Of a stretch of 64,000 bases of DNA, positions 18,001-24,000 are shown in pieces (the first letter of the stretch is position 1; every line of letters begins with the position of its first letter). A program made the position numbers. The stretch lies in the NCBI RefSeq assembly GCF_056712565.1, contig NZ_CM160072.1; one strand, 5' to 3'.

Positions 18001-21000
18001 AACGTTGTTCAGACCTTCTGCGCCGCAGAAACGAGACTGGGCGAACGGCAGATCGGCAGAGATACACAGCACAACGGTGTTGTCGATCTCGGTTGCCAGT
18101 TGGTTAAACTTACGTACTGATGCGGCGCAAACACCGGTATCAATACTCGGGAAAATGTTCAGCACTTTGCGTTTACCCGCAAACTGACCGAGGGTGACGT
18201 CAGACAGATCTTTTGCCACGAGAGTAAAAGTCTGCGCTTTGCTACCTGCCTGCGGGATGGAATTGGCGACTGTAACCGGGTTGCCCTGGAAATGAACGGT
18301 TTGTGACATGATTATCTTTCCTGTTTACATATAGTTAACGTCACACCTAGTTTATGCTAACTGTCAATAACACAGCAAACGCTATTTGCGCTTAATCCGC
18401 AGACCACCGCGACAATAAGGAGTAAAGATGAGAACCGTTAAGGTATTTGAGGAGGCCTGGCCCTTACATACCCCGTTTGTGATTGCTCGGGGAAGTCGCA
18501 GTGAAGCGCGCGTGGTGGTGGTTGAACTGGAAGAAGAAGGTATTAAAGGCACCGGTGAATGCACGCCGTATCCGCGTTATGGAGAAAGTGATGCCTCGGT
18601 AATGGCGCAAATTATGAGCGTCGTGCCGCAATTAGAGAAAGGGCTGACACGGGAGGAGTTGCAAAAAATCCTCCCTGCCGGCGCAGCACGTAATGCGCTG
18701 GATTGTGCATTGTGGGATCTGGCGGCGCGAAAACAGCAGCAATCGCTGGCTGATTTGATCGGCATAACGCTTCCCGAGACAGTCACCACGGCACAGACGA
18801 TAGTCATCGGTACGCCTGATCAGATGGCCAATAGTGCATCAACACTCTGGCAGGCAGGCGCGAAATTACTGAAAGTGAAGCTGGATAACCATCTTATCAG
18901 TGAGCGGATGGTGGCAATTCGCACAGCTGTGCCCGATGCGACGCTGATCGTTGATGCAAATGAATCCTGGCGTGCAGAAGGGTTGGCGGCGCGTTGCCAG
19001 CTATTGGCGGATTTAGGCGTTGCGATGCTTGAACAACCGCTTCCTGCGCAGGACGATGCGGCGCTGGAGAATTTTATTCATCCGTTACCGATTTGTGCTG
19101 ATGAAAGTTGTCATACTCGTAGCAATCTGAAGGCGCTGAAAGGGCGCTATGAGATGGTTAACATTAAGCTTGATAAAACCGGTGGTCTGACGGAAGCGCT
19201 GGCGCTGGCGACTGAAGCGCGTGCACAAGGTTTTCGTCTGATGCTGGGCTGCATGTTGTGTACCTCTCGTGCCATTAGCGCCGCTTTACCGCTGGTGCCG
19301 CAGGTCAGTTTCGCCGATCTTGACGGACCGACCTGGCTGGCGGTAGATGTGGAACCGGCGCTTCAGTTTACGACGGGCGAATTGCATCTTTAGGATGCCA
19401 GCGCAGCAAGTTTGCCATCGCAAAGAGATATTTTTCGCTGGCTTCGTCGGAGGAGATGGGTGGAAACTCTGCGGTGATGCAATGCAAGTTGAGATCTGCA
19501 CACCAACTGCCGAAAGAGCCAGGCGTTTCATAACCGACGCTGGTTACCAGAGGCAATTCAAACGCCTGGGCCAGCCATTCACCTAATTCGCTGTGTCTGG
19601 GATCTTCAATACAGGCCAGCGGATCGTGGAATGAGACCACCCAGGCAGGTTGAATGCGGTGTATAAGCTGGCACAGCGCCTGGGTTTCAGGTTCGGAGCC
19701 AGGTTTGTCACCTGTCAGTAAAACGACATCACGTTCTTCAGCGGCGCTGTTCCAGCGATAAACTGTTTCACCTTCCTTCCAGTTCGCTGCCGGAAAGTTT
19801 CGGTTTAAATCCACACCATTAGCATTGGCCCGTAACCCTAACTGGCAGCCGTCAGGATTCACACACAGCACCACATGATGGCGGCGCAAAGAAGGTGTCA
19901 AAGTCCGCAGAGCACAGGAGAGCGTGACGATCGAAGAGTTTTCATCACCGTGAGTGCCAGCCAGAATCAAACCACTTTCGTGACTGGCTGCAGGGGCCGG
20001 AAACCAGATTAACGGCGCGCCCAATAATGAACGTCCGTAATGTTCTGTTCCGGGCGGAAATGCGCCGCGTTCGGCGCGTGGGCGAGTTACGGTCATGATC
20101 GTCTCTGGTTCAGGAAGTATTACAGGCAGTGTTGTGCAAATTTTGCGGATTATCAAATCCTTTTCTTCAACGCTATGTCATCGATCTTGTATCACTTTTT
20201 TGCCGGAAGTTGTTTGTATTTTCATTGATGTGCAGATATTAGAATTGTCGTAATGTTATATACATGGCGTATTTTATTCTTACTGGTTCTACACATGTTA
20301 ATCGCATCTGATTGATCAGTTCACCTTAATAAGTTTAATAAATCGTACTGCACATAGTACAGTACGATGGTAGCTATATAATTGATTTACATGAAGAAGG
20401 GCTTATCACCATCAGTCCCGGGTTGATTGATGCCTATATTCTCACCAATGTGTTTCTCAGGTTTATCGATGATATCTGTGATTAATGCTGCGACACTCTT
20501 ACGTGATACGATCGTACCTTTGAATGGTTCATTGCGTGAGGTAAGCTCATAATCAATAATATCTTCATCAGTCAGCCAGGCAGGGCGAAGAATTGTATAT
20601 TCCAGTCCAGAAGCCTCAATTGCATCCGCAGCCCTGCGGAATGGTTTTAGGGGTTCACCAATAACTGCATTATTCCATTCGCCAAATTTTCCTGGAACTT
20701 CATCATAAATACCGAGGGAAAGAACAAAGATCAGACGTTTAACATCACAGGCTTTCATCGCAGCGATCACTGAATTTGCCTGAATATCTAAATCTTCCCC
20801 CGTAAGGTTGGCATACACAACATCCTGTCCCTGCATGGCCTGCTTCAGTGCTGCATGATTCAGTACATCCCCCATAATAATCTTGCTATTAGTTGGATAG
20901 GGTTTGTGGATTTTTGCTGGCTGACGGGCAAATAAAGTTTGTTTAATGGTTTGTTTATCTGCCAGTTGATTAATCACATGGCGGGCTATCTGACCGCCAG

Positions 21001-24000
21001 CACCAAGAATCAGTACATTGTTCATGAAACTTTTCCTAGATTATTGGCAGCAATATGCCAGGCCATATCACTATTACGGATTTGAATATGTTTCATTACA
21101 GAGTTTCCTCAAAGAACGGAGCTAATACTGAAATTGCTTCAGCCACATAGACTTTGCCATCATAAAGATCCATATGGTTTGCGCCTTCAACAATGTGATA
21201 GCGTTTATCCTGGCTTGATGCTCGATCGTACAGGTCGTCACTCATGCATTTGCTCCCAGCCTGGCTGCCCGCCACAATCTGTATCGGCTGAGTCAGGTAC
21301 ACTTCCGCCATATGGTAAGCATCATAGGTAATAATCTGGTTAAGGCTGCGCAAAGTAGCGTAACCCGGTGCTGTTGGATACTGCGCGCGAGGGGTGTGGT
21401 AATACTCCCAGGCCTGACGCAGTTCTTCGTTCGGCGCATCGGACTCCTTCATTGGTGCCAGTGGCATAGTGGCGTATTCTCCGCTGCTAATATCGCTGGT
21501 TCGGGCGTTTGAACCCGCGTCAACGTATGGTAGGGCATCAATAGATTTCACATTGTTTTCCCAACCATTACGGAACATCGAACCAATATTGACCGCACTA
21601 ACAGTACCGATGGCCTTGATGCGGCGATCCTGAATTGCAGCATTGGCTGTATATCCTGCTCCGGCACAAATTCCCATCGCACCAATTCGGGTATTGTCGA
21701 CATAAGAAAGCGTTGTCAGGTAATCAATCACGGCACTGACGTCTTCAGTACGAATGTATGGGTTTTCTAACTGACGCGGCTCGCCGCCGCTTTCACCTTG
21801 ATAAGATGCGTCATAAGCAATAGTGACAAATCCCTTTTCCGCCAGTTTTTCGGCATAGGTTCCGGCCGTTTGCTCTTTAACGCCCCCACCTGGGTGAGAT
21901 ACCACAATTGCCGGATACTGACGGGTTTCATCAAATTTTGGAGGGAAATAGATCACTGCAGACAAAGAGATGGTTGGATTATTGCTGTTAGTGAAGCTGA
22001 CTTTATTATTCATCATTCCGTTCCTCATGGAGTTGTCGGTTCGTTTTAACGGTTGGTGATATCACTATAGATATTGATCATTAAGTTGATTAGACCCAAA
22101 ATCATGATTAGACCTATCATTTAAATGATTAATAGATTGTATGGAGATACTGAATGAAGCGTGAAGAAATCGCTGATCTGATGGCGTTTGTCGTCGTTGC
22201 AGAGGAGCGTAGCTTCACTCGCGCAGCAGCCCGCCTGAGCATGGCGCAGTCAGCTTTAAGCCAGATAGTGCGCCGTATAGAAGAACGATTGGGATTGCGG
22301 CTTCTGACGCGAACCACGCGCAGCGTTGTACCCACTGAAGCGGGCGAGCATCTTTTGTCTGTTCTTGGCCCTATGTTGCATGACATAGATTCTGCCCTGA
22401 CATCCCTGAGCGATCTGCAGAACCGCCCATCCGGGACAATACGTATTACTACTGTAGAACATGCAGCAAAAACGATATTGTTACCAGCTATGCGCACATT
22501 CCTGAAATCGCATCCTGAAATTGATATTCAGCTTACCATTGATTATGGTTTGACCGATGTCGTTTCTGAACGTTTTGATGCAGGCGTCCGTCTGGGTGGG
22601 GAGATGGATAAAGATATGATCGCCATTCGAATCGGGCCAGACATACCAATGGCTATTGTTGGCTCACCGGATTATTTTTCTCGTCGAAGTGCTCCAACGT
22701 CAGTGTCACAATTAATAGATCATCAGGCAATTAATTTGTATCTTCCCACATCGGGTACAGCAAATCGCTGGAGATTAATACGCGGTGGACGTGAAGTTCG
22801 TGTTCGCATGGAAGGTCAGCTTTTACTGAATACGATAGACCTGATCATTGATGCTGCAATTGATGGGCATGGATTGGCGTATCTACCTTATGATCAGGTT
22901 GAGCGGGCTATTAAAGGAAAAAAACTGATACGTGTTTTGGATAAATTCACACCAGATTTACCCGGTTATCACCTGTACTATCCACACCGTCGACATGCTG
23001 GCTCGGCATTCTCATTATTTATAGATAGGCTGAAGTATAAAGGTGCTGTTTAGCACTACTTGCTGATACATTAATTTAATTCTTCTCTTAACGTATTCTC
23101 AGTTCCTTTCAACGTTTTGGTTATTTTTTATTCTTCGCACAATGGCGACAGATGCTGATTATGATACCGAAAACGGGTTTGAATGTGCGAAGCCCGAACG
23201 TAGTGTTCGGAGTTCTATGTGCTTTACCGCATTTTGGAGACTATTATTTACACTAAATCTGATTTGATATATTGATACTTAAAACATTTGATGCTTCCTT
23301 TGTCACTTTTTTGATGGAAGTTGTTTGCATTTCTTTAAAGCGAAACAAATAATTACGCATCAATTTTAATGTCGGTTAGAGGGAAACTTATGAAGCACTC
23401 TGTTTCAGTCACGTGTTGTGCGCTGTTGGTCAGCAGCATTTCTCTTTCGTATGCTGCTGAAGTTCCGAGCGGCACAGTACTGGCAGAGAAGCAGGAGCTG
23501 GTGCGCCACATTAAAGATGAGCCAGCGTCGCTGGATCCCGCTAAAGCCGTGGGCCTGCCGGAGATTCAGGTCATTCGCGATCTGTTTGAAGGACTGGTGA
23601 ATCAGAACGAGAAAGGGGAGATTGTCCCCGGCGTTGCGACTCAGTGGAAAAGTAATGACAACCGTATATGGACTTTTACCCTGCGCGATAACGCAAAATG
23701 GGCGGATGGCACACCGGTAACGGCGCAAGATTTTGTCTACAGCTGGCAACGTCTGGTGGACCCGAAAACGCTATCGCCATTTGCATGGTTTGCCGCGCTG
23801 GCGGGAATCAACAACGCACAGGCGATTATTGATGGTAAAGCCGCGCCTGACCAGCTTGGCGTCACCGCAGTTGATGCCCATACTTTGAAAATCCAGCTTG
23901 ATAAACCATTGCCGTGGTTTGTGAATTTAACCGCTAACTTTGCCTTCTTCCCGGTGCAAAAAGCCAACGTAGAAAGCAGTAAAGAGTGGACGAAACCCGG

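What the first reader, a model, noticed from the sequence alone, without database searches (positions are those of the whole stretch)
20387..21025. Intact 212-aa NAD(P)-binding protein at the ymjC position
K-12 carries only fragmentary pseudogenes (ymjC/ymjD) between ycjY and mpaA as I recall it. Here a full-length Rossmann-fold protein is encoded, implying that the PgrR-controlled ycjY-ymjC-mpaA operon has a functional middle gene in this strain. Its role in peptidoglycan-peptide catabolism is undescribed.
Basis: partly seen in the sequence, partly recalled or inferred. Interest (0 to 1): 0.3.

Follow-up and report, generated by a model that had tools for sequence, protein, structure and literature searches.

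The report
Intact ymjC reductase gene, already known
The ORF is real: it is the undamaged form of the E. coli gene that K-12 keeps only as the stub ymjC. It is the commoner allele, has a solved crystal structure, and belongs to an imported hydrolase/reductase gene cassette rather than to cell-wall peptide recycling.

Summary
Observation confirmed. Window 20387-21025 (-) is an uninterrupted 212-codon gene with a full-length NAD(P)H-binding (PF13460) match. It is 98% identical to the solved Shigella structure 3QVO.

K-12 lacks window 20223-20886, which leaves the 46-codon stub ymjC. The intact form is not rare. About 53% of 5,426 complete E. coli genomes carry it and 42% carry the K-12 deletion. 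RefSeq names it "SDR family oxidoreductase".

- ymjD is not a fragment of this gene. It is the stub of a second alpha/beta-hydrolase gene, and that gene is also deleted in this window.
- pgrR, ycjY, (hydrolase 2) and the SDR form a cassette flanked by a 30-nt direct repeat, inserted into the mppA-mpaA spacer.
- More than 70 other Enterobacteriaceae species and some E. coli have the empty site.
- In Klebsiella, Citrobacter, Serratia, Kluyvera, Pseudomonas, Stenotrophomonas and Burkholderia, the SDR always travels with both hydrolases and usually further reductases. It is never next to murein-peptide genes.

Most likely it is an NADPH-dependent reductase resembling BLVRB and ChuY, acting in a xenobiotic, ester or lactone pathway. 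The substrate is unknown. Low interest.

The parts
20387..21025 (-). Intact ymjC allele: a 212-aa atypical SDR / NAD(P)H-binding protein (RefSeq WP_001067026.1)
20223..20886 (.). The 664-bp segment missing in K-12 and in 42% of complete E. coli genomes: codons 47-212 plus 164 bp downstream
   Evidence: blastn of the window against K-12 RP437. Junction read. The K-12 junction is present in 2,292 of 5,426 genomes.
21022..21096 (-). ymjD-like stub: the first 18 codons of a deleted second alpha/beta-hydrolase gene (hyd2) fused to 6 junction codons. Its TGA stop overlaps the SDR ATG.
   Evidence: Translations. An 893-bp hyd2 segment is present in O157:H7 and absent here. hyd2 is present in 1,272-1,283 of 5,426 genomes.
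21096..22016 (-). ycjY, alpha/beta hydrolase 1 (DLH / Peptidase_S15-like), first gene of the cassette operon
   Evidence: Orthologues at 70-93% identity accompany the SDR in all seven other taxa examined.
22154..23053 (+). pgrR (ycjZ), LysR-type regulator divergent from ycjY
   Evidence: 86-88% identical LysR genes occupy the same position in the Klebsiella, Serratia and Citrobacter cassettes. Present in 5,242 of 5,426 genomes.
20185..20221 (+). Left copy of the direct repeat at the cassette edge (core 30-mer at 20192-20221)
   Evidence: the repeat finder reports it as the only direct repeat of at least 18 nt in 19300-23500. Empty sites hold a single copy.
23296..23332 (+). Right copy of the direct repeat (core 30-mer at 23303-23332), lying within the native mppA upstream region
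20342..20368 (-). 12-bp stem-loop 19 nt after the SDR stop codon, followed by UUUAUU; removed by the K-12 deletion
   Evidence: dG -16.2 kcal/mol, z -5.6. Conserved in K. aerogenes with two compensatory pairs, where it is intercistronic.
20310..20330 (-). Relic of the ribosome-binding site and disrupted start of a downstream classical-SDR gene. That gene, followed by an OYE gene, is intact in Klebsiella, Citrobacter and Kluyvera.
   Evidence: DNA homology to the K. aerogenes cassette ends at window 20310, 7 nt into that gene. Gene tables.
19368..20096 (-). mpaA, native flank of the insertion (murein tripeptide amidase)
   Evidence: NCBIfam NF007897, 478 bits. Adjacent to mppA in species and strains that lack the cassette.
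23390..25003 (+). mppA, the other native flank of the insertion

Best explanation
Shown. The ORF is the undamaged allele of ymjC. It encodes a cytoplasmic 212-aa atypical short-chain dehydrogenase/reductase with a single Rossmann domain, and the Shigella orthologue is already crystallised (3QVO). It belongs to a cassette: LysR regulator | alpha/beta hydrolase 1 (YcjY) - alpha/beta hydrolase 2 - this SDR. In other Enterobacterales the cassette continues with a classical SDR and an Old Yellow Enzyme. In the E. coli lineage the cassette sits in the mppA-mpaA spacer, flanked by a duplicated 30-nt target sequence, and different strains have lost different pieces. All E. coli examined lack the last two reductase genes. 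This window and K-12 have also lost hydrolase 2. K-12 has additionally lost codons 47-212 of the SDR.

Inferred. The protein binds NADPH. It has the glycine-rich loop GAGGQIA at residues 8-14, and Arg33 aligns with Arg35 of human BLVRB, which to my knowledge contacts the 2'-phosphate of NADPH. I infer that it transfers a hydride to an activated C=C, C=N or quinone-type acceptor on a small molecule without a Tyr-Lys dyad, as BLVRB and ChuY do. It would act in the same pathway as the two esterase/lactonase-like hydrolases, under control of the LysR protein PgrR. That pathway is most plausibly detoxification or catabolism of an exogenous ester, lactone or electrophile. The substrate is unknown. 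Its adjacency to mpaA results from where the cassette landed, not from a role in murein-peptide breakdown.

For: No YxxxK motif is present (read from the translation).

Family-wide conservation: G8, A9, G52, G105, E109, R147, R175 and the motif LGIYDEVPGxFGxWN.

Cassette: the SDR co-occurs with orthologues of both hydrolases in 14 of 14 loci from seven taxa where the SDR is at least 67% identical. This holds for K. aerogenes/Salmonella, S. marcescens, C. koseri, Kluyvera, P. aeruginosa (on an integrative element beside Trb/VirB genes), Stenotrophomonas and Burkholderia. The same operons hold adh_short, OYE, Flavodoxin_2/4, CMD and RibD_C genes. None contains mpaA, mppA, ycjG or tpx.

Insertion: mppA and mpaA are directly adjacent, 182 bp apart, in E. 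albertii, E. whittamii, Citrobacter, Enterobacter, Kluyvera and others, and in E. coli ST648. The empty site has one copy of the 30-mer and the window has two, flanking 20222-23302. The gene's GC is about 0.42 against about 0.53 in the flanks.

E. coli cassette DNA aligns at 77-80% with the K. aerogenes cassette and stops 7 nt into the next gene.

Purifying selection.
Against: No biochemical or genetic data exist for this protein or for any close homologue in the searchable literature, so reductase activity, NADPH preference and substrate class are all inferred. The BLVRB active-site His153 is Trp here. K-12 studies, seen only as cited, place ycjY-ymjDC-mpaA in one PgrR-repressed operon, so a secondary regulatory link to murein-peptide genes in E. 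coli is not excluded. In this window hydrolase 2 is missing, so the pathway may be incomplete and the SDR of reduced use. More distant homologues (45-50% identity) have other neighbours such as nitroreductase, TetR, MarR and DMT transporter genes, with no YcjY-type hydrolases.
Confidence: 0.6

Rival explanations
1. One reading: the SDR is a working middle enzyme of a PgrR-controlled ycjY-ymjC-mpaA operon and takes part in catabolism of peptidoglycan peptides.
For: It is co-oriented with and lies between ycjY and mpaA. K-12 literature lists ycjY-ymjDC-mpaA as a PgrR regulon unit. YcjY gives weak Peptidase_S15/S9 hits.
Against: The known MppA, MpaA and YcjG steps are hydrolysis and epimerisation and need no redox step (established pathway knowledge). 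More than 70 Enterobacteriaceae species and some E. coli have mppA-mpaA-ycjG with no cassette. 42% of E. coli lack the SDR. In seven other taxa the SDR never neighbours these genes. A 290-nt spacer with a -16 kcal/mol hairpin separates it from mpaA. Another K-12 paper lists the operon as ycjY-ymjDC without mpaA.
Confidence: 0.07
2. It is a non-catalytic NAD(P)(H) sensor of the NmrA/HSCARG/TIP30 type that reports redox state to the LysR regulator PgrR or to another partner.
Against: The NmrA profile matches only positions 4-104 of 298, and the protein lacks the NmrA C-terminal domain. Closer structural neighbours are enzymes: BLVRB, ChuY and QOR2. It always sits inside operons of enzymes, downstream of two hydrolases. 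The motif LGIYDEVPGxFGxWN, at the position of the SDR substrate-side loop, is strongly conserved.
Confidence: 0.12
3. In E. coli the gene is an intact but functionally stranded leftover of a decaying cassette. It is expressed or not, but it contributes little because its pathway partners are gone.
For: All E. coli examined lack the downstream classical SDR and OYE genes, of which only a relic remains. 76% lack hydrolase 2. 42% lack the SDR. About 3% lack the whole cassette. O157:H7 has a frameshifted hydrolase 2.
Against: dN/dS is 0.11-0.19 among E. coli alleles, although based on only 4 non-synonymous and 10 synonymous codon differences in one pair. Each of the two exact protein sequences looked up (the window allele and the O157:H7 allele) is found on at least 1,000 contigs. 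Some strains keep all four genes intact.
Confidence: 0.2
4. It is specifically a tetrapyrrole or flavin reductase, a functional equivalent of BLVRB or ChuY.
For: These are the closest structures of known function, and phmmer finds ChuY at E 4e-6 and BLVRB at 6e-5.
Against: Identity is only 19-26%. His153 of BLVRB is replaced by Trp. No haem-uptake or haem-degradation genes are in any of the cassettes.
Confidence: 0.08

Closest known systems
PDB 3QVO, 'Rossmann-fold NAD(P)-binding family protein' / 'NmrA family protein' from Shigella flexneri (structural genomics)
   Different: Nothing material. No function or publication could be found for it.
E. coli K-12 ymjC (b4525) and ymjD (b4673)
   Same: ymjC is codons 1-46 of this gene at the same chromosomal position.
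   Different: ymjC is truncated by a 664-bp deletion. ymjD is a stub of a different gene, the second alpha/beta hydrolase, and the window carries that stub too.
Veillonella parvula SDR (PDB 3R6D, 4HNG, 4HNH, 4IPT)
   Different: Also of unknown function, from a different phylum. Its gene context was not examined.
Human biliverdin-IX-beta / flavin reductase BLVRB and E. coli anaerobilin reductase ChuY (PF13460 atypical SDRs)
   Same: Single-domain fold of about 205-215 aa, the glycine-rich loop, an Arg after beta-2 and a Ser at the SDR 'catalytic Ser' position, and no YxxxK.
   Different: 19-26% identity. BLVRB His153 is Trp150 here. ChuY sits in a haem-utilisation operon, whereas this gene sits with two hydrolases.
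LysR-controlled electrophile/quinone detoxification or lactone-catabolic clusters containing dienelactone-hydrolase-like enzymes, OYE ene-reductases and flavodoxin-like quinone reductases (a generic class, named from my own knowledge)
   Same: The gene content of the cassette in Klebsiella, Citrobacter, Stenotrophomonas and Burkholderia: DLH, CMD, adh_short, Flavodoxin_2/4, OYE and a divergent LysR.
   Different: No member of this particular cassette has a known inducer or substrate. The match of YcjY and hyd2 to the UilS acyl-homoserine lactonase model is far below its cut-off (78-88 bits against 400).

Membership tests
Orthologue (intact allele) of E. coli ymjC | Same chromosomal position and sequence identity with the K-12 stub | tested here: met
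   Window 20887-21025 aligns to the K-12 remnant inside a 98.1% identical block between ycjY and mpaA. YmjC residues 1-46 match apart from N2K.
Pfam PF13460 NAD_binding_10 (atypical SDR, NAD(P)H-binding) | Full-length match above the gathering score | tested here: met
   184.1 bits against a cut-off of 27.2, profile positions 1-184 of 184. All 56 aligned homologues match.
Pfam PF13460 NAD_binding_10 (atypical SDR, NAD(P)H-binding) | N-terminal glycine-rich dinucleotide-binding loop in a Rossmann fold | tested here: met
   GAGGQIA at residues 8-14. G8 and A9 are at least 90% conserved. The model shows the beta-alpha-beta pattern with pLDDT 97.
Classical/extended SDR enzymes | Catalytic Tyr-x-x-x-Lys motif | tested here: not met
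   None of the five tyrosines (Y43, Y71, Y107, Y143, Y159) is followed by Lys at +4 (read from the translation).
BLVRB / ChuY-type NADPH-dependent reductases | Same single-domain fold | tested here: met
BLVRB / ChuY-type NADPH-dependent reductases | Arg after strand beta-2 for the NADPH 2'-phosphate, and active-site Ser111 and His153 (BLVRB numbering, from my knowledge) | tested here: inconclusive
BLVRB / ChuY-type NADPH-dependent reductases | NADPH-dependent reduction of a tetrapyrrole, flavin or quinone | not testable with these tools
   Needs an enzyme assay.
NmrA-like regulators (PF05368) | Two-domain protein of about 300 aa matching the whole profile | tested here: not met
   Only residues 3-100 match profile positions 4-104 of 298. 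The protein is 212 aa.
PgrR-controlled ycjY operon | Same strand, directly downstream of ycjY, with a divergent LysR gene; arrangement conserved in other genomes | tested here: met
   The same order LysR | hyd1-hyd2-SDR occurs in six other taxa; in Burkholderia the two hydrolases are separated from the SDR by other genes and no LysR gene was seen.
PgrR-controlled ycjY operon | Co-transcription with ycjY and repression by PgrR in an intact-allele strain | not testable with these tools
   Needs RNA data. The primary PgrR paper is not in the library.
Murein-peptide recycling genes (mppA, mpaA, ycjG) | Co-occurrence and conserved linkage with these genes across genomes | tested here: not met
   All but one of the 80 mpaA loci from other species lack the SDR, ycjY and pgrR orthologues (Escherichia sp. 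E1V33 carries pgrR-ycjY but no SDR), and mppA is directly adjacent to mpaA in nearly all of them. None of 18 SDR loci from other taxa has mpaA, mppA, ycjG or tpx.
UilS-family acyl-homoserine lactonases (considered for the neighbouring hydrolases) | Score above the NCBIfam NF047920 cut-off | tested here: not met
   78-88 bits against a cut-off of 400.

The most novel reading that the evidence does not exclude
PgrR, named from K-12 work as the 'peptidoglycan recycling regulator', may really be the dedicated regulator of a horizontally acquired hydrolase/reductase cassette that happened to insert between mppA and mpaA. Any PgrR control of mpaA would then be a positional by-product. The K-12-type deletion may have strengthened it, because it removes the SDR 3' end together with a conserved -16 kcal/mol hairpin and brings the ycjY transcript to within about 80 nt of mpaA. 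In intact-allele strains, which are the majority, the triad YcjY + hydrolase 2 + SDR would act on an as yet unidentified exogenous ester or lactone.
Probability: 0.3. Interest if true: 0.4.

Novelty: already known. Interest (0 to 1): 0.17.

Why it matters
The finding itself changes little. The gene is annotated in thousands of genomes and its structure is solved.

The useful by-products are corrections for users of K-12 annotation.
- ymjC and ymjD are stubs of two different genes.
- K-12 carries the minority, doubly deleted version of a four-gene imported cassette.
- The association of PgrR and YcjY with peptidoglycan recycling rests on a gene neighbourhood that exists only in E. coli and one Escherichia sp. 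(E1V33).

Anyone seeking the function of YcjY, PgrR or this SDR should work in a strain with the complete cassette, such as ECO2947-type strains. Klebsiella or Citrobacter would also suit, since the operon there still has all five enzymes.

Tried and rejected
- Primary literature. The PgrR paper (PMID 23301696) and the nitrogen-starvation paper (PMID 27231238) are not held. Searches for the PDB codes, protein accessions and a cassette-content query found nothing relevant. The only paper discussing 'ymjC' is a pan-genome association with lactic-acid resistance that calls it a putative oxidoreductase.
- Intrinsic terminator after the gene. The consensus scan did not flag one. The hairpin is stable and conserved, but in K. 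aerogenes it lies 20-odd nt before the next operon gene, so I do not claim it terminates transcription.
- Sigma-54 promoter in the duplicated 30-mer (TGGAAGTTGTTTGCA). Rejected on reading: the GG-to-GC spacing is one base short of the consensus. This is my own reading and was not computed.
- Quorum-quenching lead. YcjY and hyd2 hit the UilS lactonase model far below its cut-off, and the UilS paper does not mention YcjY. I kept it only as 'lactonase/esterase-like'.
- queH fragment. RefSeq marks one between pgrR and mppA in other strains. The corresponding 41-aa window ORF gave no Pfam match.
- The afdb50 fold library was unavailable.
- My first guess at the frame of the ymjD-like stub was wrong and was corrected.
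- The Kluyvera row of the dN/dS table is misaligned and was ignored.

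
Full report
OBSERVATION. The ORF exists exactly as described. It runs 20387..21025 on the minus strand, starts with ATG, encodes 212 aa and has no internal stop. An AGGA lies 8 nt upstream of the start (read). It is a real gene. Pfam PF13460 (NAD(P)H-binding) matches over its whole length (E 3e-54), and the protein differs at only four positions from the crystallised Shigella flexneri protein 3QVO. The window is 100% identical to the E. coli type strain ATCC 11775, where RefSeq annotates this CDS as 'SDR family oxidoreductase' WP_001067026.1. The neighbours are tyrR, tpx, ycjG, mpaA (19368-20096, -), this gene, ycjY (21096-22016, -), pgrR (22154-23053, +) and mppA.

COMPARISON WITH K-12. 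K-12 lacks window 20223-20886. That segment holds codons 47-212 and the next 164 bp (junction read). MG1655 ymjC (b4525) is the first 46 codons plus 14 read-through codons. ymjD (b4673, MKHIQIRNSDMDWHIAANNLG) is the start of a second alpha/beta-hydrolase gene (hyd2). That gene is complete in some E. coli (ECO2947) and frameshifted in O157:H7. This window has the same 893-bp hyd2 deletion as K-12. It retains a 24-codon stub at 21025-21096 whose stop overlaps the SDR start codon.

POPULATION FREQUENCY. The counts below are among 5,426 complete E. coli genomes.
- pgrR is present in 5,242.
- The SDR region is at least 80% covered in 2,895.
- The K-12 deletion junction is present in 2,292.
- hyd2 is present in about 1,280.

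The window's state (SDR intact, hyd2 deleted) therefore accounts for roughly 30%. The complete cassette accounts for about 23%, the K-12 state for 42%, and a few per cent lack everything (for example ST648). The exact window and O157:H7 protein sequences are each seen on at least 1,000 contigs. The intact gene is thus the ordinary allele.

CONTEXT ELSEWHERE. Homologues are 78-84% identical in Klebsiella, Salmonella, Citrobacter, Kluyvera and Serratia. They are 67-70% identical in Pseudomonas, Stenotrophomonas, Burkholderia, Achromobacter and Halomonas. In every locus examined from seven such taxa, the SDR is accompanied by orthologues of both YcjY (70-93%) and hyd2 (57-100%).
- In K. aerogenes/Salmonella, C. 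koseri and Kluyvera the unit is LysR | hyd1-hyd2-SDR-classical SDR-OYE. In some it lies beside integrase, replicase or AlpA genes.
- In P. aeruginosa it lies next to Trb/VirB conjugation genes and is followed by a flavodoxin-like gene.
- In Stenotrophomonas and Burkholderia it is embedded in long operons with CMD, adh_short, Flavodoxin_2/4, RibD_C and OYE genes.

None of these loci contains mpaA, mppA, ycjG or tpx. More distant homologues (45-50% identity) sit with nitroreductase, TetR, MarR or transporter genes.

THE E. COLI LOCUS IS AN INSERTION. I scanned one genome per species for MpaA and analysed the 80 best loci. In nearly all of them mppA and mpaA are divergent neighbours, typically 182 bp apart. 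This holds in E. albertii, E. whittamii, other Escherichia lineages, Citrobacter, Enterobacter, Kluyvera, Leclercia, Raoultella and others (two Salmonella subspecies have a larger gap). Only Escherichia sp. E1V33 has pgrR-ycjY in between. The empty spacer contains one copy of TCACTTTTTTGCCGGAAGTTGTTTGCATTT. The window has two copies, at 20192-20221 and 23303-23332, bracketing the 3,081-bp insert. The insert is AT-richer than its flanks. It aligns at 77-80% DNA identity with the K. aerogenes cassette from the pgrR stop to window 20310. That point is 7 nt into the next gene of the Klebsiella operon, so E. coli retains only that gene's ribosome-binding site and a disrupted start. The cassette therefore arrived already truncated, or was truncated soon afterwards, and has decayed further in different lineages.

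CONSEQUENCE FOR THE INTERPRETATION. The SDR's conserved partnership is with PgrR-type LysR regulators and the two hydrolases, not with murein-peptide genes. The MppA/MpaA/YcjG route works in many species, and in 42% of E. coli, without it. A role in peptidoglycan-peptide catabolism is therefore unlikely (I put it at about 0.07). Whether the SDR and mpaA share a transcript cannot be decided here. They are 290 nt apart, and a 12-bp hairpin (dG -16.2 kcal/mol, z -5.6) follows the SDR stop. The same hairpin is conserved, with two compensatory pairs, in K. aerogenes, where it is intercistronic. K-12's deletion removes it. The published K-12 operon descriptions differ on whether mpaA is included, and the primary paper was not available.

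VERDICT. The gene itself is already known: it is annotated, abundant and structurally solved. Its function remains undescribed. The best-supported model is an NADPH-dependent reductase working with two esterase/lactonase-like hydrolases in a horizontally acquired, PgrR-regulated cassette. Interest is low (0.17). The modestly interesting residue is that the 'peptidoglycan recycling' label of PgrR and YcjY may rest on an accident of insertion site, and perhaps on a K-12-type deletion.

Noticed in passing
window 20185-20221 and 23296-23332: A 30-nt (37 nt at 84%) direct repeat brackets the pgrR-ycjY-SDR block. Species and strains without the block have a single copy in the 182-bp mppA-mpaA spacer, so it looks like a target duplication or att-like core. 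No integrase gene is present in the insert.
   Followed up: yes
window 20221-20223 and 20886-20887; L018 7873-7876: The left breakpoint of the K-12 deletion lies 1 nt inside the cassette edge, directly after the left repeat copy. The same junction occurs in Escherichia sp. E1V33, whose cassette side is 96.8% identical to the window but whose mpaA side is only 87% identical. This suggests the deleted allele was imported by recombination.
   Followed up: partly
window 21022-21096 (-): A 24-codon ORF (MKHIQIRNSDMAWHIAANNLGKVS) is the stub of a deleted second alpha/beta-hydrolase gene, equivalent to K-12 ymjD. Its TGA overlaps the SDR ATG, an arrangement compatible with translational coupling.
   Followed up: yes
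window 20310-20330 (-): The ribosome-binding site (AAGGTG) and the disrupted start codon of a classical-SDR gene survive here. That gene, followed by an OYE gene, comes after the SDR in the Klebsiella, Citrobacter and Kluyvera cassettes. A 1-nt gap relative to K. aerogenes removes the ATG.
   Followed up: yes
window 20342-20368 (-); L004 6656-6686: A stable hairpin follows the SDR stop and is conserved between E. coli and K. aerogenes, with two compensatory base-pair changes (AU/UA to CG/CG). Whether it acts as a terminator, attenuator or mRNA stabiliser is unknown.
   Followed up: partly
window ~23151-23243 (+); L102 5505-5597; L002 6875-6949: RefSeq annotates an internal fragment of an epoxyqueuosine reductase (queH) gene between pgrR and mppA in other strains, possibly another relic of the cassette's donor context. 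The corresponding window ORF (23142-23267) gave no Pfam match.
   Followed up: partly
L002 3890-4820: The second hydrolase gene is frameshifted in O157:H7 SS17. Its segment is 893 bp against 892 bp in most other hyd2-positive strains, consistent with a 1-nt insertion specific to that lineage.
   Followed up: partly
L004-L006, about 9000-11000: Immediately downstream of the cassette, the K. aerogenes/Salmonella contigs differ in anti-phage genes. Some have a nucleotide cyclase (AGS_C) + PycTM pair and another has SMODS + SLATT. This marks a variable defence-island spot beside the cassette.
   Followed up: no
L004 4130-5982, L008 4130-5985, L002 3890-5740: The two paralogous hydrolase genes are about 41% identical to each other, and their coding regions overlap by 1-4 nt in all Enterobacterales cassettes. 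This hints at coupled translation and possibly a heteromeric enzyme.
   Followed up: no
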